Assembly (NCBI GenBank): GCA_051362555.1
Contig: CM120646.1
Location: 7,068,001 to 7,132,000, forward strand
DNA length: 64,000 nucleotides
From: Lingula anatina
Taxonomy: Eukaryota; Animalia; Brachiopoda
Direction of reading: 5' to 3'
The notes under the pieces were generated by a model. That model saw only the letters and a program-made list of their open reading frames with translations. It made no database searches and was not told the origin of the DNA. This document shows positions 7,579 to 50,515 of this stretch, piece by piece (the stretch's first letter is position 1; the number at the start of each line of letters is the position of its first letter). The translations under genes were made by a program, and so were the position numbers.

Positions 7579-7750
7579 GAGCGCATTCAGAGCAGCGAAC
7601 TAACAGATCTGAGGATCAAATATGGCCACCCGATTAAAAGCTTGCCGCTTAATTCCCAAATAGACACTGAATAGATTACGCAAAAAGCATTCAAATGGGT
7701 CGGTCATATTTGATCTGCGGATCTGTTAGTCCGCTGTCCTGAATGCGCTC
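7579..7750. mobile_element. PIF/Harbinger-like MITE A
   Basis: TIRs GAGCGCATTCAG...CTGAATGCGCTC with longer imperfect arms; TTA at 7576-7578 and 7751-7753. Confidence 0.8.
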
Positions 7751-7753
7751 TTA

Positions 7754-8051
7754 GATCGCATTCACAAAAAGTTGAGCCATGGCTTTACAAATCCTGGAAC
7801 TAAATATGGCGGACGTACATGAAAGAAAAACCGCCTAATCTTGTAATAGTCTCTCCGCCTCTCAAACGCCCATGTGTCGTCCCAATGGAGCCGAGATTTA
7901 ATGACTGTACCCCCGCAGGGACGACGCATGGGGAGGCGTGTGAGAGGCGGAGAGACTATTAAAAAATTAGGCGGTTTTTCTTTCATGTACGTCCGCCATA
8001 TTTAGTTCCAGGATTTGTAAAGCCATGGCTCAACTCGTTGTGAATGCGATC
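7754..8051. mobile_element. PIF/Harbinger-like MITE B
   Basis: Near-perfect ~85-bp TIRs GATCGCATTCACAA...TTGTGAATGCGATC; TTA on both sides (7751-7753, 8052-8054). Confidence 0.88.
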
Positions 8052-20153: not shown

Positions 20154-21090
20154 TAAAGAGCATGTTTTTATAAGCAGTCGATGTGATCGGTCAGGGACTG
20201 TCTAGCGAACATGTTTGCTGTAACACAGAAAGCTCGTGGCATGAAATCAACTACTGGTGCACTGTAACATATTGTAAATAAGTGCTGTTAAATCTGATTC
20301 AATACGCCTACATTATTTCTCAAAGACGCTCACAGCAAAAGGCTATAGGGGTAAAATGCTTAAAATATGTACACACTATTTTTGATCAGCCAACATTAGT
20401 AATGGTCAAAATGCGGTATTGTCATTGTTCAACTGGTAGCCCACGTTTTGCCAGCATTCACTATCGGTTGTCCCACGTAAAGGCCTACTTCGGTTCTCTC
20501 TTGACAAGCTTGTTATCTGATTCCCATTTGGTCTATTTGCTATGTATCGTTGTCTAATGGTATGTTCCTTAAAAGAACCCATAAATGGACACGGTACATT
20601 ATACATTCTATAGCTAAAATTAAAAGTTCCTGGAAATTTCAGCATTTTCAAAAAGTTCCATATTCAAAACCACTGCACAAATACCAAAAAGGTTACAAAA
20701 AAAGTAATCGAAACTAGTTAGAGCATCGTGAATTTTTCAATAGTTGTGGATCCAGTATACATCGGGGCTACAGTAACAATTTCTAACATTTCAAGCAATA
20801 TACATTTTTTGTCATATAAAGGGCTTACGGTAATAGAATAGCGTATTTTAATAGGTATATATTCTCCATAGACATGTAAAACGCTTTGTTTGGTATCAAG
20901 CCAGCCGTACACCAATGTCGACATGTGGTACACTGAAATTCCTTTAACATATACTATTACTGTTTCTATATTGTAACATTAAATTGTATTGAACTATTTT
21001 TAATGTAAATGTGGCAGTCGTTATGAGTAATTTTGAAACTCAAGCTTTGGACACCAGATTTAACCTCATACGATGCTTAATAACAATATA

Positions 21091-21430
21091 CAACATTGGT
21101 CAAAAAGGTTGTCCCACCCCCAATTCCATGTGCTTTTATCTTCAAATAGTCACCTCACAGGGGTAACTTGTTATAAACAGTGCTTATATTCCACATCTAA
21201 TATGATAAATGGTTCAGAAAATAGAAATAGTGGTGACAATATCCATAATGTATAATGGTAAAAAATATGGATATCGTCACCGCTATTTCGTGTTTTCTGA
21301 AATAATAATCATGTTAGATATGGTTTCTGGAATAAAAGCACTGTTTATAACAATTTACACCTGTGGGGTGACCATTTGTAGATAAAAGCATATGGAATTG
21401 GAGGTGGAACAACCTTTTTGACCAATATTG
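21091..21430. mobile_element. Tc1/mariner-type MITE, fully palindromic, same family as 22535-24130
   Basis: TA|CAACATTGGTCAAAAAGGTTGT...ACAACCTTTTTGACCAATATTG|TG; arms of about 165 bp. Confidence 0.85.
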
Positions 21431-21676
21431 TGCTGTTTACAGTAGTGCATGCTAGACACTTATAGTGAACACCACAGCCAAAATGCAACTTAACTCAAGT
21501 TGATAAAAAAGTAAATCAATTGTTAAGGTACCCAATCTGTTTCCACCCTCAGTAGCCTATACGTTGTCTCTCAATATAGTTTTAAACCATTTCCTTTTTT
21601 GCGAGTGTAATTTGTTTATAGATTTTGATAGAATGATGATAATTTAAGAATTATCCGAGGTCGTTAACCACACTAA

Positions 21677-22199
21677 GGCACCGTTCACATGAAAAATCCA
21701 AATTCTAAAAATCCAAAAATCCATTGGCGGTATCTAGTGATCACGGTCTGTGTCCTGAATACCTCGCGGCGTAATTAATTAGCAGCGCGAGCGAGTTACT
21801 TCCAAAGCTGTAATTGAATCTCGTTTGCGCTCGGAGGAGATTCTGACACTTGGACGCATGCGCAGTAATAAGTTAGAGAGAAAGAAAATGGCGGTTGCTT
21901 TCAAAAATGTGTTTGTCGATTTTGTGCAACAACAAGACAAAGACGATGAGGTCCACATACACACTACAGCTGTGAGTGCAACCGTCATGATCTGATGGCA
22001 AGAGATACCACTGCGCATGCGTCCAGGTATAAGAATCTTCTCCGAGCGAAGCCGAGAATTAATTACACCTTTGGAAGTAACTCGTTCGCACTGCTAGTTA
22101 ATTACGCCGCGGGGTATTCAGGGCACAGAGCGTAATCACTAGATACCGCCAATGGATTTTTGGATTTTTGGAATTTGGATTTTTCATGTGAACGGTGCC
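21677..22199. mobile_element. PIF/Harbinger-like non-autonomous element
   Basis: TAA|GGCACCGTTCACATGAAAAATCC...GGATTTTTCATGTGAACGGTGCC|TAA; arms of about 185 bp and a unique ~150-bp core. Confidence 0.9.
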
Positions 22200-22534
22200 T
22201 AAATGTGCCAAATTTACGTGAGTCGTCGGTACAAAGCAACCTTTAGGAAGGTCTATATTGCCTGTAATAAGGCTGGCCAACTGACAGGGAAAAAGTTCAA
22301 GCCTGACACTTCAAATTAAGGGATTTTGGCAAGGAATATGGAGTTAACGAACCCAAAAGTAATTGTTTTGTGATATTTGGAGTTCATAACACTCACAGTA
22401 TTTTACACTCGAAAGAGTGGGATAGCACGTTCATTTCTAGATGTATTTGCGGTCAGACCTTACGGACTACAAGGTTTTTACTCGCTATCAAAGTTCTTGG
22501 CCCCCTTGTTGACTTGATCACATGGTTGGTTATA

Positions 22535-24130
22535 CAACATTGGTAAAAAAGGTTGTCCCAGCCCCAATTCCATGTGCTTCTATTTAAAAATGACCACCTT
22601 ACAGGTGTAAATTACCATAAATAATGTTTATCATTCCAGATACCATATCTTACCTGATGAATCGTTCAGAAAATACACAATGGTGGTGAAAATATCTATA
22701 TTTTATAACATTAATTCATATTTAGAGTATGCACCCCCTCAAATCAGGTGTTTCACTGTGACTTTCACAAGGGTAATGAAATGTCTGTTAAATTAAAAAG
22801 ACACCGCCAAATATCACCAAATTTACACAAAACCGCGTACTGCAATTATCTCCTGTAGGCGGCGCGACAAGCCTTCATCAAGGGTAAAGATCCTGTTTTG
22901 TGGGATATTGTCCCATTCCTCTAAAAGAACTTGATGTTGATCCAGATTATTTGAGGATTGATTCTCCTCTGCATTGCACAATCCAATTCATGCCACATGT
23001 GCTCAGTAGGAAGAATATCAGGGCTCAAAGATGGTTGTTCCACCCTCAGAACATTGTGTTTCTGCAACAAATCACTTGCCAGACGAGAGCTATGAGCAAG
23101 TGCGTTGTCACAATGAGGCCAGTAGCATCCCAGATGTCACCTCTTCAAATGGAATGAGATACCCGTAGAGAGTGTTCAGTTAAATGCCTCAATACCGTTC
23201 TGTTCCAGAAGGAACAATGTAATAATACCATAGGCATGGAATGCTCTCCAAACTCGAACTAATTAAATCAGACACCTTAGGCGATAATACACTACACACA
23301 CCCTTATTAGAAGCCCTCTGCAACATGTCTTCAGACCCTCATTTGACCATCAGTGGAACACAAGAAATGCCTTGATTCTTCAGCAAAACTAGCTTCCTTC
23401 CAGTGGTGGTTGACCAAGTTCCGGTACCTCTGGGGTCACTGTACGTGATATTCTCAGCCGATATTTCACTCCATCTGCTGGAGCTAACTTGGGGGTTAAC
23501 TCCAGGATTCATCATGACAGCGCACTTGCACACAGCTCTCCTCTGGCAAGTGGTTTGTTGCAGAACACAATGTTCTGAGGATGGGGCAACCATCTTTGAG
23601 CCCTGATATTAACCCCACTGAGCACCTGTTGCATGACATTGGAGTGCACAATGCAGAGGAGAACCGATCGCCAAATAATCTGGACCAACATCGCCAAGTT
23701 CTTTATGAAGAATGGGACAATAAGCCACAAAACAGAATTGTCACCCTTGGTGAAGGCTTGTCGCGCCGCCTACAGGAGATAATTGCAGCACGTGGTAGAC
23801 ACACACGCTATTAGACACGTGACATTTAACGAGCACTTGCTAATTTTGGTGATATTTGGCGGTGCCTTTTTAATTTAACAGGCGTTTATTTGCCTCCGTG
23901 GAAATCACAGTGAAACACCGGATTTGAGGGGGTGAATACTCTAAATATGAATTAATGTTATAAAATATAGATATTTTCGCCACTTTTGTGTATTTTCTGA
24001 ATGATTATTCGTGTACGTTATGGTATCTGGAATAAAGAACATTGTTTAGAACAGTTTCCATCAGTGAATGATCATTTGTACATAAAAGCACATGGAATTG
24101 GGAGTTGGACAACCTTTTTGACCAATGTTG
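22535..24130. mobile_element. Foldback Tc1-family element with decayed transposase 3' ends in both arms
   Basis: TA TSDs and inverted arms of about 630-680 bp. The right arm encodes SPDINPTEHL...LYEEWDNKPQNRIVTLGEGLSRRLQEIIAARGRHTRY (Tc1 C-terminus); the left arm carries its reverse complement. Confidence 0.9.
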
Positions 24131-25199
24131 TAGAAACGATTTACTTTTTTACCATTCCTACATCTAAAATACCATATATTTAATATTTTTCAGCGTTGGC
24201 TTGTTATAATTGTTACTTAGTATATCTCTCCGATAGGTAAATGCATTTCCGTTTAACCTTTGGCTGAAATGTGCATTATTCCCATCGTTGACATAATCAA
24301 AAATACCAAGACAACAACAAAAAAATATTTAAAGCATTGCAGCAGATATCACTGCATTGGTAAACAATGCCCATAGGTAAAGGTACTCCGCGTTCTTTTT
24401 TTTTACCATAATCCAGTATACAAGTTCACTAGTACATCAACAGTCGAGATTGTCCATTCAAATAAACCATATTTCAATACCAAACAATGACTACATTTCT
24501 GAATGATGTTCAATAAAATTAACTAAAAGTTTTGAAAAAAAATCCTTGCACCCAGGTACACATGTATAAGACAACATGTGAGTTGAAGATGAGAGTTTGA
24601 CAAAATGAACTTCGTCTTTAATCCTCATTCTGATACAAGGACGTGGAAGTCATGAAATGCACGTCATGCATTTTACGTCTTCCGAGAACATTACCACCAT
24701 TAAAATGTCTTAAAAATAAAGTGCAGTTTGGTAAGATTTCTCAATAAAAATTTTATATTATTTTATGTGAGTGCTAGAAAAACTTATTTGCCTGCTCTAC
24801 TGTTGAAATAAGTAAGATTACATCAATTATATATGATAATGTCATATTGCCATTGTTAATTAAAGCTATTTACAAAACCTAGTTAGACCAGACAAAATTG
24901 TATCAAAAATCAAATTCTTTTGCACATATTAATCTCACAAATGGTTTAGTAAAAGGGGCTTACAATTAACTCCACAAAAATCTCAATGTTGTTTTTATGT
25001 TCAAAACTGTCTACACTGCGAATCTGAAGTTTCCTCTAAAAAGAAAAAAGTCCATATGCTATAACAATACAAATGTAAATTCGTCTACCGTCCATCATTT
25101 TTCTCTGATCTTCACAGGCAATCTGGTGAAGGTGTATGTTTGCCACCAGGTATTGATCTAGTTATGTACTTAACATACTTTCCGAAACGTTATTAAAAT

Positions 25200-25303
25200 T
25201 CATACTTGGGTCTGCAGGGGAATAGCGGCGTCACCCAGTTCCTCGTCTGACACCTCAGTGGGAAAACTGGTTCTGCGGAAGTATTCACAGAGAAGTTTTA
25301 TTT
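25200..25303 (-). CDS. TNFR-like receptor exon 5 (cytoplasmic tail, stop)
   Basis: tttgctttcag|, in phase: (Q)IKLLCEYFRRTSFPTEVSDEELGDAAIPLQTQV*. CAA|GTATGA could instead be a donor to a further exon. Confidence 0.75.
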
Positions 25304-25553
25304 CTGAAAGCAAAAAGTGTTTCTTGTATTCGACAATACGTAAAACGCCTCACCGGTACCGATCAAATCTTTTCCATCATATCTCGGAATGGCATGTAAA
25401 TTATGTTACGCTAAAATACACGATACACATAAAAATATAGAGAGTGAAAATCTGTCCTCTCGAATGAAACATTTAATATAGATTTTTGGTAAAGTTTCAC
25501 ACATGACAAACATGTTTATGTCATTGCCTACCCTGTAGTTGGTGATGTCACTT

Positions 25554-25703
25554 CAGGGCCGTAGCCTGAGCAAAATGCCAGGGGGGGGGCAGTAAGCGGA
25601 CACGAGGGGGCGAAGCTACCGAGGGGGGAGGGTGTGGTGTGTAAAATTCCAAATTCCAGGGGGGGCAGCTGCCCCCCCTGCCCCCCCGGAGGCTACGGCC
25701 CTG
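25554..25703. mobile_element. hAT-like MITE with 5-bp TSD
   Basis: CACTT|CAGGGCCGTAGCCT...AGGCTACGGCCCTG|CACTT; perfect TIR and TSD. Confidence 0.9.
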
Positions 25704-25714
25704 CACTTACTTAC

Positions 25715-25903
25715 GTTTTCGTTTTGTGATGATCAACACGCCTATTAGTAGCACTGTTACACCAGCGCCTAAACCGAGTGCTATATATCCGACGAGGCCG
25801 TCCCAATTTTGAGGAGACACGGGTGAAGAGAGGGCGACTCTTCCTGTCGTAGTTACGTTCAAGTGTGTAGAGAGGGCAACTGTTTCTGTTGTAGTTACGT
25901 CCA
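25715..25903 (-). CDS. TNFR-like receptor exon 4 (Thr-rich stalk and transmembrane helix)
   Basis: cattttag|...|gtaagt, 189 nt: VDVTTTETVALS...GLVGYIALGLGAGVTVLLIGVLIITKRK; hydrophobic TM segment followed by a basic stop-transfer signal. Confidence 0.88.
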
Positions 25904-26818
25904 CTAAAATGAGATACAACAAGATATCAGCTTTATTATTATTCAGGTCTTTTGAGGTCAAATGTATTTTTGGTTGATTGCCTTTGGAGCATTTAGTATT
26001 TATCACAAGGTTATATTTTATCTTTGTGTACCTTTCAGTTTGCTCTTACCATGCAGATAAGTATGTGAATGTATGTTGTCAAGTTTTGATAAGAAGGGAG
26101 AAACGCAGTCCGGGGTTGGCTGGGGTCGCGTGGTACAAAGACAGCATTTTTAATCAAATATTTGGTTTCGAATTTAATTCTGTGTCAATTCACCCTCTTT
26201 GATATTTGTAGGTGATGATATCCATTTGGATAAGATGTGTGGTGGGCCCCTGTTTTAATCTATAATCACACCGAATCACAACGAGATATTTTAGCACACT
26301 GTAACTTCTGAGGCAGTTGTTTGTTTAAATGAGAGAGACAGAGAAATGTTAATGACCGACTAGTTACATTCATAACCTGCCCGTTGCATTTTTTGAACAC
26401 AGGGTATTCTCGAGATGGCATATTGTGTTGATACATAAATATAGCACACGATTAAACTGTGTGAATGCACGAATTGCAAAATTGTTATCTGCTGATGATA
26501 GATAGTTTACATAGCTTAAGTCTACATACCCCCCCTGTTGAGAAGATCTAGTGCTTGGAAGTAACGCTTATAAACATACCCCTTCAAAAAAAAAAAAAAA
26601 AAAAAAAAAACATTATAACAGGAAATAGTGGGGGCTGATTGTCTAGTAATAATTAAAAGAAATATATACTGCTATCGACATAAACTCGTATAAAAGACGT
26701 GTTTTGATAAAAAATATTCCAAAAGAAAGCTGCACAATTATTTTATCTATATTGCCTATTGCATTTTATTTTGACACATGGAATCAAGTTGAGTCTATTA
26801 CATTTCATGTTTCTTTAC

Positions 26819-27009
26819 CTGCTGTAGTGGAAGTATTTGCCGCCAAATATTCAGAATGTTTGTTATAGGGACACAAATAAGCTTGCCCCAAATCGAAACA
26901 TTCGGATGAGATTCCCCCTTGATGTATACCACGACATTCGCTTTCTCCCGTGTAAGTGATATTACCCTCGTCCTTACGGTGAACACAGCAAAAGTCACAA
27001 GGTTCGCAC
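26819..27009 (-). CDS. TNFR-like receptor exon 3 (cysteine-rich domain)
   Basis: ttttttgcag|...|gtaaag, 191 nt: CEPCDFCCVHRKDEGNITYTGESECRGIHQGGISSECFDLGQAYLCPYNKHSEYLAANTSTTA; open frame, phase 2 to 1. Confidence 0.85.
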
Positions 27010-27182
27010 CTGCAAAAAATTACAAGTATTTTTCAGCATAGTCTTTTAAATTGTATTCTTACAGGAAAATAACTAATATGTTTTTGTCTTCAAATTAGTT
27101 TATCAATATTGGGTTTGGGTTATATCATCATTTCAATGACAATGTATAAATAATAATGTTAAGAAGAGATTTGATGACTTAC

Positions 27183-27265
27183 TGTTGAGTGGTAGGGTTA
27201 AATGCAGTGTGTTTCTCAGTGCATGGGGGAACCGCTGCACACATCACTACCACCATCAAGATACC
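27183..27265 (-). CDS. TNFR-like receptor exon 2 (signal peptide core and CRD start)
   Basis: tttcgcatag|...|gtaagt, 83 nt: GILMVVVMCAAVPPCTEKHTAFNPTTQ(Q); phase 0 to 2. Confidence 0.8.
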
Positions 27266-27389
27266 CTATGCGAAAGTAAATTATATGCGTTCAGTAAAAG
27301 TTTTTTATTATTGCTTTTATAAACACACTTTTTGGGTTTCCAAATACCTTCTATATTAACTAAATGTGATAAAATAACATTAATATAGC

Positions 27390-29330
27390 AGACAATGTGC
27401 TGGTAGATAAAGTTCAATTCGGGCATCCAGGCAATGACCTACATTGATCGAGGTAGTCACGTGCTTTATTCAAATCTTTAGGTCTAACATTTGCGCAACA
27501 TTTTAGCATTTCTGCAGCAGATGGAACAAAATAGACGGCAAGGAAAAATGTTCTCTAACTGGTAAGGCACTATTATTTTTGTACTTTGTAAAGCCATGGT
27601 GTGAAGCAGAGTTGTATCTTTGTTAAGGTGTATGTACAATGAAAAACAAGGGGCTGCTTTGGGGACACCTTTTCTTCTCACTAGACAATGGCATATTTGC
27701 ATCAATACTAAACAATACTTTTTACATTTGTCATTTTGAATTCCCATTTTATACCAAAAGTGGTGTTTTTCTGTTTAATACCAGATAGTACGGTACATCT
27801 CCATGTATTGATCTTCTATACGAATGCCTCAGTTAGATGTGCTAGGTCACAGGACTTTGTGTCACTTTCGATTTCATCTTTATACCATATGATAGATGTA
27901 GCTCCATAAGCTTACAATCGATTTAATAAATAGGTACTTTGGAATCTGTCTATCACCTATACGAACTGCATGTCCTAAGTATTTGGTAGAGTGGGGCATT
28001 GTAACTGTATTAAATAGAAGAGTAAGACTGACAATGTTTTGGACGACACGTCTTTCTAGGAGAGAGCTTTGCCAAACTAACTTACACATATTTTGTGGAC
28101 TATGTAGATAGTCGAATGTGACACTTGTTCCATCAGGATGTCTTTATTAATGTCTAACTTATATAAATTTATCCCGCTTTGACCTAGGTAAACATTGGCG
28201 ACCTAATTGCTAGGCAGCGTCATGATCAATACGTACTGTGTGCTATTTGATCTGAGGCATTATGCTAACCATTCATCCGAAAACAATTCGGGTCAACTTG
28301 CTATGTTTAAACACTCAAGCATGTGTTTCAACACACTAGTTTACCTGCACATGTGCTACACTGAATCACAAGCCTGGAGTTGTGAATCAATATGTACTGG
28401 TATTGATAACATTTAGCTTTTAGCAATGATAAACTGAAAGCATATGGGTGACGTTTGGTTTCTTCCCCCGTCTTGGCTCAGGCTTTGTGAGATACAAGTC
28501 TAGTCTTCAGTTTCGTGTACGAGGCGAAAAGTTAAAATAAATGATCACTATCAATAAAATGAATTTCGAACGGATTTTCTTCAGAAAATCAATATATAGT
28601 TGCAAAAACATCATACACATATTGTTTATACTAGATTTAAACAAAATGGCTTAATTTACATTACAATAATTTACTCAAAACTACAGGTATATTTATGGTA
28701 CCAAAGGAATGAGTTGCAACAGAACAGGAAAAAATTACTTATTGATCAAAAATAATTACAGGGGTAAATAAAAACTATGAATATTCTACTAAAAACGTAC
28801 TAAAATCCAATTTAGCAGTTTGGAGAATACCTTAAAGCTTTTGTCTGCATCCTTCATGTTTTTATGGCATATACACTTAGCAAAATCAAAAGTTTGCAGT
28901 AATATTACTGCAAGCTAAAAATTTGCAGCAGCGAGTTTGAAGAAGTTTGCAAGAAAAATTTCTTGCTGCTAATTTGCAGTCGTGTTACAGCAAATTTGTT
29001 GCATATTTACAAGCAGAAATCGCAAATTTGTTGCAAATCGCTGCTAATTTGCAGCAGGCCTAATATTTTGCTTAGGACTTGTCCATATAGTTTCTTTACT
29101 TAGAGTAATGCAATTTACCTGTCTTGCTTGCAATCATAATCAGTTATTTATGGAAATGAAGTGGAATTAGGAATATCTGTATATTTTTGGTGTAGTTTAC
29201 GTTTTGTAAGTGTAAGTCCTTGAAATAATAAACTTTAAAAGCATTTAAGCTGGGTGAAAAGAAGTAACAATGCCAGATATCAAATTTTATTTTAATTAAA
29301 ATACCTAGGGCGATGCACAATATCTATACT
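27390..29330 (+). repeat. ~1.9-kb direct repeat, copy 1 (intron 1 of the TNFR-like gene)
   Basis: Colinear and highly similar to 35448-37370; both contain an internal (gcaaatttg)-rich TIR element. Confidence 0.92.
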
Positions 29331-29407
29331 GTAATTAAGCCTGACAGTGCTTTTGTAAACCTGTCTGGAGTTTTCAAAGTTTAACCTGGTACATGTGTTT
29401 TTTTGTA

Positions 29408-30066
29408 GGATTCTAGGACAATTCCCCCCCCCCCCCCGGACTATTTCCCCCGGACAATTCTCCCCCGGACAATTCCCCCCAGGACAATTCCCCCAGGACG
29501 ATTCCCCCCCAGAAATATATATATTTATAAACAAATATAAAGTAGAAAGTGTTAAGTTAAAAACAGTTCTTCCTTTTTATTGATATTTTTAGTGTGAAAA
29601 TACAACTTCATCATGAAACAAATTATTTTATAACAAATTCCTTTTTCATTGAGTACAAGTACAGAAAGATTTATCAAATATCTAATCAAAGTATTACCAC
29701 CCATCCTTCAGGTAAAGGTGGGTAAACAGATGAACAGGTAAACAGATATTTTTACATCTTTACCTGGAGATAAACTTTGAACAGATTTTTAATAAAATGT
29801 TCCGTACTTCTATCTTGAAAATTTTATGTACTTGTACTCCATGAAAGTAATTTGTTTAATGAAATTAATATTATTTATCCTCCAGTTTGATCATCACACT
29901 AAGAAATATTCAGAAAAAGGATGAAAAGATTTGAACTTTGTACTCTTTACTTTATATTTATATACAAATATACATTATTGGGGGGGGGGGGTCGTCTGGG
30001 GGGAGGGGTTGTGGGGGGGGGGGTTGTCCGGGGGGAATAGTCCGGGGGGGAGATTGTCCTGATACC
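29408..30066. mobile_element. Foldback/MITE with subterminal (ccccggacaatt)n arrays
   Basis: ggattctaggacaattcccccc ... ggggggagattgtcctgatacc termini, and long imperfect AT-rich inverted arms. Confidence 0.78.
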
Positions 30067-30186
30067 ATCTGTAGTCCCGTGCGTAACCCATCATGAATTT
30101 TTTACAATTATTTAGAGAAACGATCAAAAGAGTCTTTATGAAGATGTAAAGGTGAACAATTCGAACTGAAATATGAAGGCACATAC

Positions 30187-30219
30187 CTGTACATATCTAA
30201 CACATGTAGATATATCCAT
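30187..30219 (-). CDS. TNFR-like single-CRD receptor, exon 1 (MDISTCVRYVQ)
   Basis: ATG plus 11 codons ending CAG|GTATGT in phase 0. It joins the next exon to complete a plausible signal peptide. This is the least certain exon. Confidence 0.6.
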
Positions 30220-30679
30220 TCATCACAAAAATAGCTGGATATATTTCCTAAACAAGCTTCTAAAACTAATACTATAAGGTCACCAATACTTACAATATAA
30301 GGTCAAAGTGTACCAGAAATAGTCAAATTATTCATTCTTATACCAAGGCATATTATTTGTGCCCTACCTTCTCGGGAAAAGTGGTATAGACTTATCTCAA
30401 CTGTTATAAAACATTCCCCTAAATCAAAATTTCGTGTTATGGAGTGCTTTTAATAATGGTGTCATTTTTCATCTTTGTAAAGTAGCCTGGTGGGAGAGTT
30501 TCGGATATTAGGACTATTTACTGTTAATTTTACAGGCACTCTAAACAATCAAAATATTTACCTGGTCCAATATCAATGGATATGTTAAATCCAAATATAT
30601 TCAACTTTTAGGGAGACATGATTTCTTTAGTAGACCCAATTACATTCGGCTAATACAAATGGCTTACATATTATACATT

Positions 30680-32010
30680 GCAATAGATTAACGTTAAATA
30701 TTGTCCTTAACAATATCTCTAACATTTACCGTGTACTCCCCCCACTTGTATATATTTTTCATGATTCATTTTTCCTGCTTAAACTATGAGATAAATATTC
30801 TGGGCATGCTTTCACGAATCTACCAAAGGGAGCGCCCAGTACATGATGGCAAAATGGCGAACTAGAATGTGTTTACTTGTCAATCACAATTGGGTAATAT
30901 TAAGTGCAGTTTTATAATGAACTTGGCGTAGCCTGTAGGCGGTATGTTATGTCTATTTATTTGACATATTGGTTTTATCGATAGAGTGTGCTCCTCTTAG
31001 AGCTTAATACAACTGAAGTATGCTTTACATTGGTGTATCTCTACGGTATGTCGAGCGATTTGTGACTCTAGGGCTTGTGGAAAGGTTTTGAGCCTCACAC
31101 TGTAATAATCAGGTATTTGGATTCATTCTGTTTCATCTTCTAATAAGTCCCCTTAAAGCAACAACACGTTCTTGTTCCATCTAGTAGGCCAGACCCGATT
31201 AGTAAAATCCAGCAGCTTGGACCCATAAGGTTGTAAACATCCACAGCATCTGTACGCTCATCATTATCCTATAATATTCCTCTAGTATATTCCTTTAGTA
31301 GACTCAATGACAGCCTGGACACGTACAGGTACATGTACATACTTTATATATTATACGTTGAAATGAATCTACTGGGTACTCACCGATACTTGCATATACT
31401 TAGCTATTTGGTAGTTCATGTTTCCTGCTTAAAATGTGATATAGGCTACTTTACTAAACCGGAAGCAAGATAAGCAATAGCATGTGACTGTTTTAATTTG
31501 CCAATCACAATTCAGGTTATATAAATCCCAAACGCGTAAAGTTGTCGAAGCATTTATGAGTTGGTTACACATACATGTACCTACAAGCATTTTCTACAAT
31601 TGTGAATCGCTATCTACCAGTACATTATGATGACAAAATGGCATACTAGAACGTGTATGTGTTAATTAGCCAATCACTGTCAAGTTAGTATAAATTCCAG
31701 TCTTAAAAATTTGTTAATGCAGTTATGAGTTTGTTACACATACCTATGAGCATTTCCTACTGTTGTTAATCGCTAAAAATGATATTGCGATACAAGTGTG
31801 TGTGTGTTTTGAATCGAGTATACATATAAATGCTCAGTTTGAGTTTTATAATGAAGTTGGAGTAATCTCTAGGACTCGTATATGGTGTCTATTTATTTGT
31901 GATAGTGATTTTATTGAGAATGCTCCCTCTTTATAGAGAGTGCCTTATTCAAGTGATGTATGCTTTATACATGCATTGGTGTTTTTTCTTGGTATGTCAA
32001 GCGATTTTTG
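30680..32010. repeat. Degenerate local tandem duplications with promoter-like motifs
   Basis: 30905-31050 resembles 31840-32010; 30850 resembles 31630 (caaaatggc..actagaa..gtgt...caatcac); 30730-30785 resembles 31370-31435. Confidence 0.65.
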
Positions 32011-32190
32011 GCTTTTGGACATTTAAGTGCGTGTCCATGAGAAACCAGCCCAAATGCACAAAATGCGGCAAGGTGAGGGTCAACGGATTTACACCATATT
32101 TGGTGTATTTGATCATCTACATGTATATGAACAATATCTGAAGCTGCAATATTTCCCTTAACTGATCCCTACTTAGAGATTTATTATTAT

Positions 32191-32438
32191 TTATTGCCTC
32201 CGCCAAGGAGGTTATGTTTTCACCCCTGTTTGTCTGTCTGTCTGTCTGTCTGTCATCAGCATAACTAAAAAGTTTGAAACCGGTTTTAATGTAATTTTCA
32301 GGAACTGTCAGAAGTGGGCCAAAGAAGAGATGATTAGTTTTTGGTGGTGATCCGGATTAATTATCAATCAGTAATCAATAATAATAAAAAAAATCGCTGC
32401 CTTGGCGGAGGTCTGCTCTCTCGGAGTTCTTTTCTAGT
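32191..32438 (+). mobile_element. Non-autonomous Helentron-type element (HINE/DINE-1-like)
   Basis: 5' subTIR cctccgccaagg with adjacent short IR, a (gtct)n microsatellite, 3' subTIR ccttggcggagg, and a terminal hairpin followed by ttctagtt in a T-rich site. Confidence 0.8.
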
Positions 32439-35400
32439 TTTATTTATTTATTTATATATATTTTTTTTGGGGGGGGGGGTGTTATCAACCCAAAGGATGT
32501 GCTGGTAATCATTGGCAAAGTGCCCATCGTCAAATTTTAAAAATAATTTGCTATTATAAATGATGCATATATTTGTTGTGTGAAAAATATTATTTGGTTT
32601 TAATTTCTGATATGTGGGGAGGGGTGTAGCCTGTTGTATGCAGTCTAATGAATGTGTAAAAAGGAGTTATATGTTAAATACTTGTGGTGTGGCACAAGTT
32701 AATGGGAAAGAAATTCTTTTTTTAATCCTAGAGAAGAGACGGAGGGGCGGTGTAATACTGTATTTTCTCTCAGAAGCCATCACTGATTCCACTCTACTGT
32801 ATAAAAGTCTTGTAACTAGGGCAACTTGTTTCAGTATATTTATTCATTTTATGTATTTTTTCCTAGACCAGCATTTGTTGGTCTAAATAGTTGTAATAAT
32901 GACAAATACACATTCTGTAAAGGATAATTATAGAGCAAAAAAGCTGTTACAGTAACAAAAAAAAAAAAAAAAAAAAAAAAAATGTAAAAGCACTGTGAAT
33001 GGCTGCTTGGAATGTTTCCAATTACCATAAAATAAATAAGGTATAAATTCTCCCAAAATAATGATAAGGTAAAAGTAAAAACTAAATGAAAATAAAGCAT
33101 GCATCATAACAGATATGGACCTTGTATAGAACGCACTGCAATAGTTACATTACGCAAAATATATATATAAAAATATTTGAATAAACATGTATAAGAAACA
33201 ACAGATATTCAATCAGATGTGCTGTCCAAAACACTTTCGATCTCACTAATACCGTCATCACTTTATGTTGGTAAATATGAGGAATCTAAACAGCCTTCTC
33301 GACAACATAATTTTCGATTGTACCCTTGCCTTCTTTCAAACCCCATCTACCACAGGACTGAAGTGATTTGTGCACAACTTCCAACTGTCTGGGAACCTAA
33401 TTTACACTGACAGTACCAACCACTGATGGGTCTAGTTTAGCTACGGGAATTCTGAATCCATAAGCTTAACTGGTGGCTAGATGTGTGCCTTAATTAACTA
33501 TATTTTGGCTCTGATTAAATCATGTGCATCCTTGCATACACTGATTTCGAACTGGCCATCTAGCAGATGCTTTATCTGGTAAACGTCTGGTAATTAATTA
33601 TAGGCTGGTGGTCTCTTCTTTCGACAATTTACCAAGTCAATAGGCTTTCACTGATCTCCACGACATCAGAGGCCATTCATAGCATTTTGGAAAAAATGCA
33701 GTGCTATTACAAATAGTGCTGGTGTGGAAAGTTAACTAACTAGGGTGCTTGTGATGGAGCCTTTCATTTTACTTTTTATGCAAAATAGATGTAAACGGGG
33801 GTATTTACACAATGATTTTAGTTGTACAATATGTACTTTCATGTCCATTAGGAGTGGGGTGGGTCAATCCCACCTAATATGTAGAGGGTCTCTATAGTAT
33901 GGGTCTCTATATAAAGTAGGTGCCACCACAATGTACGTCTGCTATTATCATAATTAATATCTGAAGAACAATTTACATGTACATTTTATCTTTCTTAATC
34001 CTAAGAAATAAGAATAAAAAATATACTAACTGTATTTAGACTCCATTTCTCATCCATGTTTTCGTTTTTAGCATGCATTACATGAAAATGAATTTTCTTT
34101 TTCTACTTGTAACTGAAGACATTTTTACTGATTTTAACCCCTGCTCCCCTTTTAAAGACCTACTGTTTTTTGGTGTTGTTCTTTTAGTACAAAATATACA
34201 CTTTGTCTGTCTACCTATCCTATGTAAGCATTTAGCAGCTACCTCGTGGCAGGAATAAACATGGCCGACTGCTAGCATATGGACTGAAAATGTCCACATA
34301 AGGTTTGAGATATCAAGCCCAACCCTAAGACAAGCTGATTTTCAATTCAATTATTTCAATTTATTTCTGTACTGGTACATAGATTGTCATGACCTTGTAC
34401 AATTTGATATACTAATGATGATACAATACAGTTAGTGCATTACCATCTTTATATAATGGACATACGTATCAGTAAAATTACTCATAAAATATTCTATCTA
34501 AGCAATGCGATAAACCTTGGTGTGATTTTAAATTTATCATAAACATACTATAAACATGTTACACAAAAAGAATATGTTTAAACTTAAAACCAAGGTTACA
34601 TAGCTGTTTAAGGCCAGTTTGATGACATGGATAATTACGACTAATGACAATTACATAAGACAGATAAGTAAATAAGTGACACAGGTATAAATATTGTGCC
34701 ATGTTCAGTCCCACTGCCGAGTCACTTCTCACAACAGTGGGACCATACACTGACATTTTAAGGGATATGCTAAGAGTTACCAAGCAGAGCAACCACTTCA
34801 CTTCTTTTCTTGAATGATTTGATTATAAAGTTGGAGAGGGACACTAGAGTATCTTTTTTGGCACTGTTAAATACATGGCATAAATGACTGTCTGGTGACC
34901 TGGGATCAGCTTTTAGGATTGAGGTTTTACTTCAAATATATCTCACCTTATATTCATGTCTTTTCAACCATGAATAATTAGCTTGTCATAGGCAGGGGCT
35001 CATATATAAAATGAACATCTTTTATCCTCAAGTCATTGTGAGATTATTCTTTCAATCAGCACTACATATACGAATAAAGCAATCAAAATATTGATCACAG
35101 GCATCAATTGACCACTTATTGTCTTTCTTTTTTAAACTGTCACCTTCTGTACCCATAGTTTTCACCTTACTACAAGTATAGAAGTGTAGCAATATATTTC
35201 AGAACTCCCCTAAAACAAACATTTTCATTAATATTTTACAAGATCATTTGACATTAATATTAGATATTTCAAAATTAAAAAAAAAAATTAAAGTGGATCA
35301 AAAAAGTGTAAGACCTTCATTTTAATTTGGTGTCATTTTTTTTCATTCATTCCCAATTTATTTTTCATGTACAAAGGTGGGCACTTTTACCCTCTTATTA

Positions 35401-35447
35401 TCACTCAAATCTACTCTAAATGAAGGCACTATTATTTTTGTACTTAG

Positions 35448-36600
35448 CAGACGAGGTGCTGGTAGATAAAGTTCAATGAGGGCATCCAGGCAACGACCTG
35501 CATTGATCCGGTCAGGTGGTATTTTCAAATCTGTAGGTTTATCCTTGCGCAACATTTAACATCTTTGCAGCAGATGGAAAAAAAACCCGCGACAAGTTTA
35601 AAGGAAAAATCTACTCTAACTGGTAAGGCACTATTATTTTTGTACTTTGTAAAGCCATGGTGTTGAGCAGAGTTGTATCTTTGTTAAGGTGTATGTACAA
35701 TGAAAAACAAGGGGCTGCTTTGCGGACACCTTCTCTCCTCACTAGGCAATGGCATATTTGCATCAATACTTTTTACATTTGTCGTTTTGGATTCCTATTT
35801 TATAACAAAAGTGGTGTTTTTCTGTTTAATACCAGATAGTGCGGTACATCTCCATGTATTGATCTTCTATACGAATGCCTCAGTTAGTTGTGCTAGGACA
35901 CAGAACTACGTGTCTCTGATTTCATCTTTAAACCATATGATAGGTGTAGCTCCATAAGCTTACAATCGATTAAATAAATAGGTCCTTTAGAATCTGTCTA
36001 TCATCTATACGAACTGCATGTCCTAAGTATTTGGTAGAGTTTTAACTGTATTAAATAGAAGAGTAAGACTGACAATGTTTTGGACGGCACGTCTTTCTAG
36101 GAGAGAGCTTTGCCAAACTAACTTACACATATTTTGTGGACTATGTAGATACACGAATGTGACACTTGTTCGATCATAGTGTCTTTATAAATGTCCAACT
36201 TATATAAATTTATCCCGCTTTGACCTAGGTAAACATTGGCGACCTAACTGCTAGGCAGCGTCATGATCAGTACGTACTGTGTGCTATTTGATCTGAGGCA
36301 TTATGCTAACAATTCATCCGAAAATAATTCGGGTCACCTTGCTATGTTTAAATACTCAATCATGTGTCTCAGCACACTAGTTTACCTGCATATGTTCTAC
36401 ACTGAATCACAAGCCCGGAGTTGTGAATCACTATGTACAGGTATTGATAACATTTAACTTTTAGCTATGATAAACTGAAAGCATATGGGTGACGTTTAGT
36501 CTCTTCCCCCGTCTTGGCTCAGGCTTGGTTTGTGAACTTTGTGAGATACAAGTCAAGTCTGCAGTTTCGTGTACGAGGCGAAAAGTTAAAATGTATGATC

Positions 36601-36671
<71 letters not shown>

Positions 36672-37370
36672 ATATAGTTGCAAAAACATCATACAAATAT
36701 TGTTTTTCTAGATTTAAACAAAATGGCTTTACATGTACAATAATTTACTCATAACTATATTTAGTGTATCAAAGGAATGAGTTGCAACAGAACAGGAAAA
36801 ATACTTATCCATCAAAAATAATTAAATAAAAATGATGAATATTCTAGTAAAATGTGCAAAAAAGCCAACTTTACAGTTTGGAGAATACCTTAAAGTTTTT
36901 GTCTACATCCTTCATGTTTTATGGCATATACTTAGCAAAGTTAATATTGATGCAATCTTAAAATTCGCAGCAGCGAATTTGCAGAAGTTTGCAAGAAAAA
37001 AAAAATCATGCTGTTAACTTGCAGTCGTGTTGCTGCAAATTTGTTGCAAATTTACAAGCAGATATCGCAGAAATCGCAAATTTGTTACAAATCGTGCTTA
37101 TTAGCAGCAGGCCTAATATTTTGCTTAGAACCTGTCCATATAGTTTCCTTACTTAGAGTAATGCAAATTACTGGTCTTGCTTGCAATCATAATCAGTTAT
37201 TTATGAAAATAAAGTGGAATTGGGAATATCTAAATATTTTTGATGTAGTTAATGTTTTGTAAGTGTAAGTACTTGAAATAATAAACTTTAAAAGCATTTA
37301 AACCGGCTGAAAAGAAGTAACAATGCCAGATATCAAATTAATACCTAGGACGTAGCACAATATCTATACT
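35448..37370 (+). repeat. ~1.9-kb direct repeat, copy 2
   Basis: Matches 27390-29330; carries an extra (AT)n tract at about 36603-36665. Confidence 0.92.
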
Positions 37371-38112
37371 GGGAGACCCTTCCCCCTCCTCACTTTCATC
37401 CGCCCACCCCTAATCCCACCTAAACACCCTTCATGGCTTTCGCTGTGAAGGCGGCCTGTGCCTCGTAGAGGCGGGCATCTAGTATTCACCGCACGGCGAG
37501 AAAAAACCGTAACTCCCTGAATACCCTGCCCGGAATCCGCGGTGAAGTTGCTTGTGCGCCGCTGATACGGATCAGCGGCCGTCTTGGCCTACCCACACGA
37601 CCGAGAGAGACCGTTGTATTCAGCACAGCTTCCTCGGTGAAGGCTTCCTGTACGCCGTAAGCAATAATCGGCGGCCGTCTTGAACTCAGCGAACGGCGAG
37701 GAGAGACGGTAACACCCTGCCCGGCTTTCGCAGTGAAGGTTACATAATCGCGGTACACGATAATCGCCGGTGGCCTCTCCCTCCGTCCACCCCTGTTTCT
37801 CTCAGCAAAAACGATTGTGGCTTCTCAGAATCGTTTTTGAAAAACGACACTAGTTTCTGGTTGCCAGAATCATTTTTCAAAAAACGACACTGATTTCTTG
37901 GCATCAGAATCGCTTTTGAATATTCAATAAAATTAAATATTATACCTCAAATACAAAGGGAGACCCCGGGGGCCCTTTTTCCCAACTCACCCTCACCCGC
38001 CAACCCCCAACTCCACCTAAACAGCCTTCCCGGCTTTCGCTATGGAGGCGGCCTCTGCCTCTCCCTCCATCCACCCCTGTTTCTCTCCGCAAAAACGATT
38101 CTGGCTTCTCAG
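37371..38112. repeat. GC-rich unclassified insertion with internal repeats
   Basis: Recurrent ggctttcgc(t/a)gtgaagg, cggccgtcttg and aaaaacgacact units; 37371-37460 plus 37773-37828 is re-duplicated at 37958-38112. Confidence 0.6.
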
Positions 38113-38209
38113 CGCTCCGCTACTTGTGTGTATTTTGCAATTTGATGACTCATGTTTCCTGCATATACATGTAGTAGGCAATAGATTAACGTTAAAGTTT
38201 GTCGTTACA

Positions 38210-38380
38210 ATATAATAATAATAATAATAATAATAAGATTCTTATATGGCGCCTTACATTCTATCTCAAGGCGCCTTACAATAATGGCTAATATACTAAA
38301 ATCATTAAAATGACTACAATATTTTAATCATAAACTCTCATTGGAAACCATTTAAAATTTACACTACTAAAAATCAATCC

Positions 38381-38432
<52 letters not shown>
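38210..38432 (-). mobile_element. 3' tail of an L2/CR1-type non-LTR retroelement (or derived SINE)
   Basis: Minus strand reads tgtaaggcgccttgagatagaatgtaaggcgccatataagaatc(tta)n. The insert is flanked by aatat, and the paralogous site at ~30712 (ttaacaatatctct) is empty. Confidence 0.7.
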
Positions 38433-38435
<3 letters not shown>

Positions 38436-39917
38436 CTCTAGGATATACCGGGTACTCACCGCCACTTAAGTCATATGGATGCATCCTACTCAGAACACAT
38501 TCAATCAATCTATGTTACTACCACACCTGTGCATAAAACAAAAACACACAGACATCTTGTTTGTATATGTGTAATATGATATCGACAAAATTGTTTAGAT
38601 AACTGAAATATCTGAAAATTATAACAGTCAAAATGAAAGACCCAGTTATGAAAACAAGTTCCAACAAAGCTACTGAAATTGGATTTAGCGATGCACTATT
38701 AGTAACATTTCAAGCACAATCTTCCCAAACCACTTGTTTGTGGCTGTTCTGGGCACACTGTCTGGTTGTATAAAGCACATGGTTCACTGCAATACAATAT
38801 AAAGTACTGATAAGAAGTGGAACATTTGAATTAAAAAAAAAGAGTTTGTGATGTATATGCCACACTTATTGGTTTATCTCTGCAAAAATCTGTGCAAGTG
38901 TGTAGGATTAGTAGACTGACAAACTCATGCTATAGAAAAGAAAATTTGGATAAAAAATAAAGAGATAGCAAATTAATTCATAAGACAGGGGTCATAAATG
39001 ACCCCACACGATCACTTGAAGGTAAAGGAATATTTTCATATTTGAGAAACAGCATTTCAGCCCTTGCAATTTTAATAAAATTGTGAAATTTAATGTACAC
39101 ACCATATCAGTAAAATGTTTCTGAGAAGATATAAGGGTAAGTGTAGGTCGCTTTCCGTATGCCGTAATTAGTGATTAGTTTAACTCTAGATCTATAGATT
39201 TCTTTTTTCGCACAGTTTCAATTCATTACTATGATAAATTCTGTGTCTGCACAGATATTTATCAGTACTCGCACATGAACCAGTGCACTCAGTATGCTGT
39301 TATCACTTTGAAGTGAAAACGGCCCTAAAATTACAGAATAATGCAACAAAGAAAATTGTCTTCACTGGCGATATAAAACCATAGTTTATCATGTCTTGGT
39401 GAAGATGAAAAAAATTTAACAAAAATGTAAACCTTGTCCAATTCTTGTAAATTTGGAATTTCAAATTCAGGGGGAACCTTTTGGTGTCTACATGCGACAG
39501 TAATGATAATATGCGATGGGTCACCGGGCGTCCATTCTCCTATCTACCATTCCTTTTACATTTATACAATTTTCCTTAGTAAATCGCAACTTGAATCATG
39601 CCCTCTACAATATAAATTTACCGTGTAAAAGTTAAAGATTGCCATCACGCTATTTCTAATATCTGCATGTTCTTACCAATATACCTGTAACAGTACGCGT
39701 CATGCCTTCCACTTAAATTAAGACTTATATCAGTAAAGTTGTATTCCTACTTGTATTTCAACAATATCAACTCAAAAAAATGTAGATCAGGTTCAAGGTC
39801 GTACATGTAACTCGGAACGAGACATGCGCCTCTTTGCATTGTGGTACCCTCTGGTGGCAGGCTTTAGTTAAACATATGATGCACCGTCATGAATGGGAAG
39901 GGTAAAAAACCTTCAAA

Positions 39918-40639: not shown

Positions 40640-42017
40640 TCCAACCCCTGTACCTTCATAAGGGAGGAAAACATTTCTAGTTGATTTATGTAGAAAGTGT
40701 TGTGAAGGAAATTTTCACAGATTATAAGTATCCATTACTTCTTTTACAGCTCCAATCACCGTCATTTTAGTTAAAGAAACGTTATGCACCAAGCGTCATT
40801 TCATAAGAAATAGATAATATTTTTTTGTGAAATGCTACAGTTCTGCATAATGTTTTAAAGACTAATTATTGTGATAAACTTTTGTTGTTTTGCCTAAACT
40901 GTCATTTCTTTCGGTTATAGTTGAAGGCACATATTGTATTAAAGTAAATGCTTTACACCTTCACTTATAACAAGTAATAATTAAACAGGAGTGAAATGAG
41001 TGATGATAGGGAGTTATTGAGTATAAGTTAAATATCAACAAGTGTATAAATTTTCGTGGAAGGAAAAGATGGAATTTGGCAAAATCACGACGATCTGATT
41101 GATGAAGACGGACTCTTTTTAACGTTTGATAAATTTTGTACACGATACCAGATTAATTGTCCCTTCACGGTATTTGGGGGGCGGGGGGTAAACAACTCAA
41201 TAACTAGTTAATGGCCTCAAATTGTGAATGTCAGGGATAGGATTGAGAGGACCTTCAAGCCAAAATTCATTGAAATTATTTGTAAGGATTCAAAAGGATC
41301 AAGATCAATATATGACATAATTATTAAGAGTAATAAACCTTGTGCAGAATCGAAATGGGAAACGATGTTCAACTTAGGTGATAACTTCAACTGGAAAAAT
41401 GTATACCGAAATATTTTTCAGTGCACTGTAGATACAGTATAAGGTGGTTGCAGTATCGAATAGTGCACAGGATTTTAGCTACTAACGTGTATTTATATAA
41501 AATTAAGATAAAAAATAACTCACGATGCACATTTTGTGAAGAGGGAGAGGAAACATTAAACCATTTATTTTTTTTAATGTAAGGAGGTTCGACCGATATG
41601 GCAAAAAATGCAAAATTGGATAAAAGAAAAGTCCTCATTGGAAATTGAGTTCTCGTGTATGGATGTTTTATTTTTAAAAAAATTGGACGAAAATACCAGT
41701 CTTTGAATTTACTGATATTATGGACAAAAAACATAATTTATAAGAATAAACTGCAAATAAGGCATCTAAACTTTATAGAATTTCAGGCTAGCATCAAAAA
41801 TATTTTGAAATAGAAAAATATATGTTCTTGAAAGAAGGGAAGAGGGATAAATTTGAAACAATATGGAACACACTTCTAAACTTATTTGTGTAGTTTGAAG
41901 GGGTTAGTGTCTACATTATGTGCGGGTGTATATATACATGTACTTATATATTGAAATGGAGTATATAAACGAAAGAGTAGAAATAGGTAGAGTGTATGTT
42001 TTTGGTTGATGCATAAC

Positions 42018-48767: not shown

Positions 48768-48777
48768 TTATGGCCAC
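48768..48777 (-). CDS. Single-VWD protein copy 1, terminal exon coding part (P-W-P-stop)
   Basis: tttcctttcag|GTGGCCATAA; minus-strand AATAAA at about 48641-48636; the acceptor is conserved in copy 2. Confidence 0.55.
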
Positions 48778-49016
48778 CTGAAAGGAAATGTGTCATAATG
48801 ACTCCACTTGCATTTCGTCTTACCGATGATATTGTTAAGAAAGGTAGTAAAAAACAATGATAAAAAGACAGAAAATTATCCAAAATGGCGAGTTCTGTTC
48901 CCTTCCAGAAACTGTCAAAAAAGAAAAACTCCCACAGATATTTGTTTTACGCAACGCATGCTGCAACAAACATAATGTTATACTATTTGTTTGGAAAATT
49001 AGAGACAGTTTTTAAC

Positions 49017-49195: not shown

Positions 49196-49236
<41 letters not shown>

Positions 49237-49300: not shown

Positions 49301-49305
49301 CTTAC

Positions 49306-50513: not shown

Positions 50514-50515
<2 letters not shown>

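What the first reader, a model, noticed from the sequence alone, without database searches (positions are those of the whole stretch)
25200..30219. Hidden 199-aa TNF-receptor-like protein with one BCMA/TACI/Grindelwald-type CRD and TRAF6 and PDZ motifs
Seen: five phase-consistent GT-AG exons (33+83+191+189+104 = 600 nt) give a signal peptide, an 8-Cys ectodomain starting C-TEKHTAFNPTTQQ-CEPCDFCC, three N-glycan sequons, a Thr-rich stalk, a TM helix and a ~35-aa tail with PTEVSD and terminal TQV. Known: BCMA/TACI/BAFF-R and Drosophila Grindelwald have single short CRDs of the form C-x(n)-[FY]-x-x(4-5)-CxxCxxxC; PxExx[DE/aromatic] binds TRAF6; T-x-V-COOH is a class I PDZ ligand. Inference: a death-domain-less invertebrate TNFR that may couple TRAF signalling to a PDZ scaffold. 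The second half of the ectodomain (CC...C...C...C) does not fit a standard CRD and may be a new variant. The gene is small enough to be unannotated or labelled uncharacterized.
Basis: partly seen in the sequence, partly recalled or inferred. Interest (0 to 1): 0.78.

Follow-up and report, generated by a model that had tools for sequence, protein, structure and literature searches.

The report
Unannotated minimal TNF-receptor-like lamp-shell gene
A lamp-shell (Lingula) gene not found in the protein collections searched encodes a small membrane protein with one cysteine-rich head and a short tail, likely a minimal TNF-family receptor that would signal through TRAF adaptors much as fly Grindelwald does, though its fold and partners are untested.

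Summary
Real, weakly expressed, apparently unannotated Lingula anatina gene. Sparse RNA covers exons 2 and 3 and probably 5, but no splice joint was listed. The product has a signal peptide, an 8-Cys head, a Thr-rich stalk, one membrane helix and a 37-aa tail with TRAF6- and TRAF2-type motifs and a class I PDZ end. The first hairpin plus CxxCxx(x)C matches the signature used for short invertebrate TNF receptors. The second half fits neither the Grindelwald C2 module nor a six-Cys CRD, and the BCMA/TACI DxL tip is absent, so 'BCMA/TACI/Grindelwald-type' is only half right. No homolog was found, single-exon folds were unreliable, and the whole ectodomain was not folded: TNFR membership rests on pattern and topology. 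Death-domain-less single-CRD receptors are widespread in invertebrates, and TRAF plus PDZ coupling is known (Grindelwald-Veli, Fas-Dlg1). The scan had not noted this DNA; it noted a similar hidden gene in an arthropod (e1-7833958). Modest interest.

The parts
31384..31419 (-). Likely true first coding exon (ATG at 31419, 12 codons, phase 0, donor GTGAGT); start of the predicted signal peptide
   Evidence: One of 5 ATG/phase-0 candidates in 27300-39000; about 54 nt of depth in X8 and about 50 nt in X7; junction inferred from binned depth, not listed
30187..30219 (-).
   Evidence: bin 30211-30467 empty in 4 of 4 runs
27183..27265 (-). Exon 2: signal-peptide hydrophobic core, first ectodomain Cys (C27) and hairpin with Phe34
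   Evidence: depth in X7, X9 and X8
26819..27009 (-). Exon 3: seven Cys (C41, 44, 47, 48, 65, 77, 86 in 200-aa numbering), two sequons, start of stalk
   Evidence: depth in X5, X7, X8, X9; the X5 depth of 50-53 nt in the bin that holds 51 exon bases fits a read ending at the donor
25715..25903 (-). Exon 4: Thr-rich stalk, third sequon, TM helix (25725-25796, residues 140-163), basic stop-transfer
   Evidence: RNA support not separable from the repeat at 25554-25703
25200..25303 (-). Exon 5 coding part: cytoplasmic tail and stop
   Evidence: about 135 nt (X9) and about 70 nt (X7) of depth in its bin at 90% likeness, none at 95%
25239..25262 (-). Overlapping TRAF6-type (PTEVSD) and TRAF1/2/3/5-type (SDEE) motifs
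   Evidence: motif definitions from PMC9597381
25203..25211 (-). C-terminal TQV, class I PDZ-ligand pattern
24622..25199 (-). Likely 3' UTR; first ATTAAA at 24622, first AATAAA at 23890
   Evidence: About 465 nt of depth in X4 in bins 24507-25508, all first-mate-plus like the X5 exon-3 read; signals
35445..38165 (-). Partial duplicate of the gene's 5' end: intron-1 copy (85% over 2005 nt) and a broken exon-1 copy (38118-38165, 75%) without a donor; no copy of exons 2-5

Best explanation
The gene is transcribed at a low level and encodes a small single-pass membrane protein with one 8-cysteine head on a Thr-rich stalk and a short tail without a death domain; it likely works as a minimal TNF-family receptor that would be clustered by a trimeric TNF-like ligand and would recruit TRAF adaptors. 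Shown: exon chain, open frame, topology by hydropathy, motif matches, sparse RNA over exons. Inferred steps: (1) C27-C41 closes an A1-type beta-hairpin whose tip contacts the ligand, and the other six Cys form a three-disulfide second module of non-standard spacing; (2) three receptors on a ligand trimer bring three PTEVSDEE stretches to a TRAF trimer, which needs avidity, and drive JNK/NF-kB signalling rather than caspase-8 death; (3) terminal TQV ties the receptor to a PDZ scaffold at junctions or the apical membrane and so limits where it signals.
For: Exon chain and topology. Expression in 5 of 6 runs laid, counting the X4 3' UTR reads. The Cys cluster satisfies both CXXCXXC and CXXCXXXC, and the TM starts 99-113 residues after the first two Cys; these are the signature and the 80-120 aa filter used to call invertebrate TNFRs (10.1101/2024.07.27.603686). 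The Thr three residues before the hairpin-closing Cys (T38) sits like Grindelwald Thr51, which is essential for Eiger binding (PMC8024323; Cys54 is deduced from the module limits). An aromatic residue lies 7 before that Cys (8 in Grindelwald). In 100,000 shuffles of the tail, a TRAF6 motif appeared in 4.4%, a class I PDZ end in 3.0% and both in 0.13%. The motif has none of the three negative features in Table 2 of PMC9597381. No death, TIR or protease domain was found in 161 of 161 downstream ORFs of 52 aa or more.
Against: No sequence relative: exon 3 gave none (2 hits, both repeat artefacts); exon 4 gave none; Pfam matched 0 of 4 exons. The domain is split by an intron and was only searched exon by exon, and Pfam's TNFR model also misses Grindelwald, so these blanks are weak. 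The Cys spacing 13-2-2-0-16-11-8 fits neither a six-Cys CRD nor the C2 module, and there is no Asp-x-Leu tip. The TRAF6 motif is low-complexity (10,451 matches in the human proteome) and lacks the Trp+5, Asn-2 and Glu+1 preferred in the screen. The shuffle tests are post hoc and no ortholog was available to show conservation. No splice joint was listed, and exon 4 has no clean coverage.
Confidence: 0.55

Rival explanations
1. An orphan, lineage-restricted mucin-stalked surface protein whose disulfide head only borrows, or mimics by chance, an A1-like hairpin. It would bind a non-TNF ligand (microbial, matrix or cell-surface), and its tail motifs would serve trafficking or be incidental.
For: No homolog in 1.84 billion representatives or in the Atlas (best 0.80). 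Five of the seven Cys gaps are non-canonical for CRDs. Aromatic-x(6-7)-CxxC also occurs in GCC2/3 and furin-like repeats (recalled). p75NTR shows that even true CRDs can bind non-TNF ligands.
Against: The hairpin pattern, CxxCxx(x)C, TM distance and a TRAF motif in a short tail occur together, as in Grindelwald, Fn14 and BCMA. Short CRDs are known to escape BLAST and Pfam.
Confidence: 0.27
2. A trimmed descendant of a multi-CRD, death-domain-less invertebrate TNFR (EXT/EDAR-XEDAR-TROY-like or coral/bivalve type) that kept only its membrane-proximal repeat; an ordinary member of an existing but poorly described subfamily, possibly a decoy or modulator.
For: EXT receptors mostly lack a death domain (3.4% have one), and XEDAR and TROY use TRAF6. 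I recall coral and bivalve TNFR-like proteins with a membrane-proximal CxPCxxCC...C...C...C module; this comes from no call and was not tested. One X9 read seems to run about 10 nt past the exon-3 donor, where a stop follows four codons later, which would give a soluble head.
Against: No such relative was retrieved. The PITA preprint found no lophotrochozoan EXT ortholog in its tracing. A text search for CXXCXXCC-type terms found 1 unrelated paper.
Confidence: 0.13
3. The chain is wrong at its 3' end or non-functional: the transcript splices at CAA|GT to further exons, for example a signalling domain as in other receptors of this genome, or it is a decaying duplicate with leaky transcription.
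For: No joint listed; very low depth; decayed copies of the first exon lie upstream; scan notes report TNFR-protease fusions in this genome (unchecked).
Against: The CAA|GTATGA donor scores 0.9 against 2.6-6.2 for the used or candidate donors (rough recalled matrix). About 135 nt of X9 depth exceeds the 98 nt available before that site if it is one read, and X4 reads lie downstream on the gene's strand. No Pfam domain above cut-off downstream (exons in ORFs under 52 aa were not scanned). The frame is intact over five exons.
Confidence: 0.05

Closest known systems
Drosophila Grindelwald (PMC8024323; PDB 6ZT0 as cited)
   Same: Single 8-Cys ectodomain, hairpin with an aromatic residue and a Thr three before the closing Cys, followed by CxxC; no Asp-x-Leu tip; tail coupling TRAF and a PDZ protein (Traf2, Veli/Lin7)
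   Different: Grindelwald has X2 (two disulfides in the hairpin) plus C2 (Cys57-x3-Cys61-x11-Cys73-x3-Cys77). Here there is one hairpin Cys pair plus six Cys spaced 2-0-16-11-8. A long Thr-rich stalk is present, and the PDZ site is C-terminal (Grindelwald's Veli site is internal; recalled).
Human BCMA, TACI CRD2 and Fn14
   Same: Short CRD, no death domain, TRAF-binding tail; A1-like first module (spacing recalled, not aligned)
   Different: [quoted passage not shown]
'grnd-like' single-CRD receptors of annelids, molluscs and cnidarians (10.1101/2024.07.27.603686; 115 homologs in 148 proteomes)
   Same: Meets their stated Cys signature and TM-distance filter
   Different: Their HMM, tables and any Lingula entries could not be seen; that study mined annotated proteomes, from which this gene appears absent
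Human Fas (PMC6219722) and p75NTR (PMC4800290, listing and start of abstract only)
   Same: TNFR-family receptor with a PDZ partner; Fas ends in the class I motif SLV and binds Dlg1 and Lin7c
   Different: Both are multi-CRD death receptors

Membership tests
TNF receptor superfamily (broad, invertebrate usage) | Single-pass type I topology with extracellular Cys-rich domain | tested here: met
   Hydropathy and exon chain, (no SignalP or TMHMM run)
TNF receptor superfamily (broad, invertebrate usage) | CXXCXXC or CXXCXXXC core and TM 80-120 aa from the CRD | tested here: met
   C41/44/47 and C41/44/48; TM starts at residue 140 (criteria)
TNF receptor superfamily (broad, invertebrate usage) | Canonical about 40-aa CRD with six Cys (C1-C2, C3-C5, C4-C6) | tested here: not met
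   Eight Cys over 60 aa, spacing 13-2-2-0-16-11-8; definition. Grindelwald also has eight.
TNF receptor superfamily (broad, invertebrate usage) | Profile match to TNFR families | tested here: inconclusive
   0 of 4 single exons matched Pfam at E<=10; the domain is split between exons 2 and 3 and was not scanned whole
TNF receptor superfamily (broad, invertebrate usage) | CRD fold | tested here: inconclusive
   Exon-3-only models had pLDDT 47 and 51; best Foldseek E 4.6, best VIA Z 3.2
TNF receptor superfamily (broad, invertebrate usage) | Binds a trimeric TNF ligand 3:3 | not testable with these tools
   No Lingula TNF sequence was in hand; no complex run
Grindelwald | X2 hairpin with two intercalated disulfides | tested here: not met
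   Only C27 and C41 bound the hairpin
Grindelwald | C2 module C-x3-C-x11-C-x3-C | tested here: not met
   First C-x3-C present (C44/C48), closing C-x3-C absent, two extra Cys
Grindelwald | TRAF and PDZ-protein sites in the tail | tested here: inconclusive
   Motif patterns are present; binding and conservation untested
BCMA/TACI/BAFF-R/Fn14 | [quoted passage not shown] | tested here: not met
   Asn-Pro-Thr at that place; motif from PMC8024323
BCMA/TACI/BAFF-R/Fn14 | Direct alignment to these CRDs | not tested
   Reference sequences were not returned by any search; PDB phmmer with exon 2 or exon 3 alone gave no TNFR at E<=10
Death receptors | Cytoplasmic death domain | tested here: not met
   37-aa tail; no death domain in downstream ORFs
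EXT (EDAR/XEDAR/TROY-like) | Three-CRD cluster homologous to EDAR/XEDAR/TROY | tested here: not met
   One Cys-rich unit only; with a phase-0 exon 1 joining directly to exon 2 there is no room for further CRD exons (definition)

The most novel reading that the evidence does not exclude
A true TNF receptor with a CRD architecture not yet described (A1 hairpin plus a three-disulfide module with vicinal Cys). It would have reached the Grindelwald design (one CRD, TRAF site, PDZ tether) independently in brachiopods, vary strongly between individuals or hidden paralogs, and also be made as a soluble decoy by intron-3 read-through.
Probability: 0.2. Interest if true: 0.6.

Novelty: new variant of a known kind. 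Interest (0 to 1): 0.4.

Why it matters
The function and ligands of death-domain-less invertebrate TNFRs are listed as open questions (PMC4979521). If this is a TNFR, it shows that proteome-based counts miss minimal receptors even in a RefSeq-annotated lophotrochozoan, and it adds a new second-module type to the CRD catalogue. Its 60-residue head and 37-residue tail are small enough to synthesise and test directly. The signalling logic itself is not new.

Tried and rejected
No whole genome is held, so paralogs outside the window were not searched; inside the window tblastn and blastn found no second copy of exons 2-5. The first lay (15 kb, 90%) was swamped by repeats; 42 joints were not shown. 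The second lay (95%) listed no joints and lost most gene reads. Homolog searches were blank: exon 3 'longer' (2 candidates, 0 scored), exon 4 'longer' (1413 candidates, 0 scored), representatives (2 hits, rejected as summed repeat matches), metagenome contigs (0 of 92 stretches), Atlas (best 0.80), PDB sequences (2 saposin hits at E 0.65-0.75, rejected; none). Single-exon AlphaFold models were too poor to use; their fold searches give no verdict, and the second model was not searched. No complex job was run. Shisa, Ly6/uPAR, WAP, somatomedin-B and PSI Cys patterns (recalled) do not fit by eye. Literature searches: Lingula + TNF receptor (8 papers), TNFRSF + Lingula, brachiopod immunity (28 papers, 15 listed) and CXXCXXCC terms (1 unrelated); none of the papers I opened describes this gene. 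Three papers were not held. A Lingula immune-repertoire paper that I recall (Gerdol et al. 2018) did not appear in these searches and may list transcript-based TNFRs.
Full report
Observation. The five minus-strand exons are as described: 600 nt, GT-AG ends, open frame, 199 aa. Used donors rank at the 97th-99.7th percentile of all GT sites under a rough, recalled matrix. Exon 3 is the only one of 281 open candidate segments with CxxCxxC and at least six Cys.

Organism and annotation. An exon 35 kb away is identical over 113 of 113 residues to Lingula anatina XP_013393452.1. The window is therefore from L. anatina or something very close, and at least that RefSeq protein is in the searched collection. 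Exon 3 found no relative among longer proteins or among 1.84 billion representatives, and exon 4 found none among longer proteins. The gene thus appears unannotated. This is an inference from blanks, backed by one positive control.

Expression. Six of nine listed runs were laid, each only in part. No joint at the gene was listed, so everything here is arithmetic on binned mean depth. In X8 about 54 nt fall at 31239-31495, 110 in the exon-2 bin and 108 in exon 3; 54 + 83 + 13 makes one 150-nt read running from a new first exon through exon 2. X7 shows the same pattern at 90% likeness. A search for ATG/phase-0 exons gave five candidates, of which 31384-31419 is the one in the covered bin, so the likely product is 200 aa. 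In X5, 50-53 nt lie in the bin holding 51 bases of exon 3, which fits use of its donor. In X9 one read seems to pass that donor by about 10 nt. About 135 nt in X9 lie in the exon-5 bin, more than the 98 nt before the CAA|GT site, and X4 has about 465 nt at 24507-25508 on the gene's strand; both favour the TQV stop. Exon 4 has no clean coverage and X1 shows nothing on exons 2, 3 or 5. Most X9 and X7 gene reads vanished between 90% and 95% likeness, so they come from divergent alleles or paralogs; this was not resolved.

Anatomy (200-aa numbering). Predicted signal peptide to about residue 23 (hydropathy only). Cys at 27, 41, 44, 47, 48, 65, 77 and 86. Sequons at 56, 98 and 119. Stalk of 41% Ser+Thr. 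TM 140-163. Tail of 37 aa with a juxtamembrane Cys172, PTEVSD (181-186) overlapping SDEE (185-188), and terminal TQV.

What the head is. It meets the CXXCXXC/CXXCXXXC signature and TM-distance filter that a survey of 148 proteomes used to call invertebrate TNFRs (10.1101/2024.07.27.603686; parts 1-5 of 6 read; its supplements and tables of homologs were not visible and may bear on novelty). Thr38 lies three residues before the hairpin-closing Cys, as Grindelwald's essential Thr51 does (PMC8024323; passages and first part of section 8). The C2 spacing and the Asp-x-Leu tip given in that paper are not met, and six Cys remain for the second module. Pfam, PDB and Atlas searches exon by exon were blank, and exon-3 models were unusable. 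The whole ectodomain, which spans an intron, was neither folded nor scanned, so the fold is open. Short CRDs are known to defeat BLAST and Pfam (10.1101/2021.12.26.474206, parts 1-3 of 4; PMC9646898 passages). I recall a similar CC-containing membrane-proximal module in coral and bivalve TNFR-like proteins; this is untested and, if right, would lower the novelty to a new member of a known kind.

What the tail does. The TRAF6 motif PxExx[FYWHDE] and the TRAF2-type [PSAT]x[QE]E are defined in PMC9597381 (passages and section 2.1). The site avoids that paper's three negative features but lacks its preferred Trp+5, and such matches are common. In 100,000 tail shuffles the TRAF6 motif arose in 4.4%, the PDZ end in 3.0% and both in 0.13% (post hoc). 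No known signalling domain lies downstream: 161 of 161 ORFs of 52 aa or more were scanned, with one sub-threshold DUF hit. Across the window 300 of 370 such ORFs were scanned.

Mechanism. The most likely reading (0.55) is a minimal TNF-family receptor: ligand-driven trimer clustering, avid TRAF recruitment, JNK/NF-kB output, PDZ-dependent placement. Only the gene structure, motifs and sparse expression are shown. Separate odds: real gene about 0.93, new exon 1 about 0.85, TNFR-type first module about 0.68.

Comparison and novelty. Single-CRD receptors are reported as the predominant invertebrate mode (115 homologs), and most invertebrate TNFRs tabulated lack a death domain (PMC4979521; part 1 of 4, passages and first part of the supplement). 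Grindelwald binds Traf2 and Veli/Lin7. Fas uses a class I PDZ end to bind Dlg1 and Lin7c (PMC6219722 passages). Fn14, BCMA, TACI, XEDAR and TROY recruit TRAFs (PMC3920183 and PMC3697994 passages). PMC11463336 passages added nothing on Lingula TNFRs. What is new is the gene itself and its Cys layout.

Scan notes. None matched this sequence or place. Notes on TNFR-protease fusions in this genome prompted the downstream check, notes naming Lingula were confirmed, and a similar hidden short receptor was noted in an arthropod. These are leads only.

Verdict. Observation partly confirmed (exon 1 revised); interpretation partly supported; new variant of a known kind; interest 0.4.

Noticed in passing
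window 35445-38165, 30765-30789, about 38435-38500: Decayed copies of this gene's 5' end: an 85%-identical intron-1 block, an exon-1 copy whose donor is replaced by other sequence (37371-38117, partly repeated at both ends), and further exon-1-like stretches. No copies of exons 2-5.
   Followed up: partly
window 26808-26819: One X9 read appears to run about 10 nt past the exon-3 donor; read-through stops after four codons and would give a secreted head. Could be pre-mRNA.
   Followed up: partly
window 26819-27265 and 25200-25303: Most X7 and X9 reads over these exons are only 90-95% alike (X9 exon 3: about 535 nt at 90% versus about 146 nt at 95%; exon 2: about 245 versus 0), suggesting divergent alleles, a divergent population or paralogs.
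   Followed up: no
window 46240-63988 (minus strand): Tandem pair of small secreted-looking genes with a weak VWD match (E 0.005, below cut-off); one copy is L. anatina XP_013393452.1 (266 aa, uncharacterized), the other is 73-81% identical to it and was not returned as a protein.
   Followed up: partly
window 7749-8056, 21090-21431, 21669-22207, 22530-24135, 29447-30048, 25554-25703: Several inverted-repeat (MITE-like) elements, including one short element in intron 4 whose copies are common in unrelated transcripts.
   Followed up: no
window 60647-60988 (+) and 41385-41579 (+): Retroelement fragments: GIY-YIG (E 2e-4, just below cut-off) and zf-RVT (E 5e-8).
   Followed up: no
window 24300-24556: Four X8 reads, all first-mate-plus, run over the end of the laid stretch here, with weaker depth in X7 and X9; could be the distal 3' UTR or something else.
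   Followed up: no
window 25725-25796 and about 25287-25289: The TM has a G-x-x-x-G stretch and the tail has a membrane-near Cys172; these could be a helix-dimer motif and a palmitoylation site (recalled, untested).
   Followed up: no
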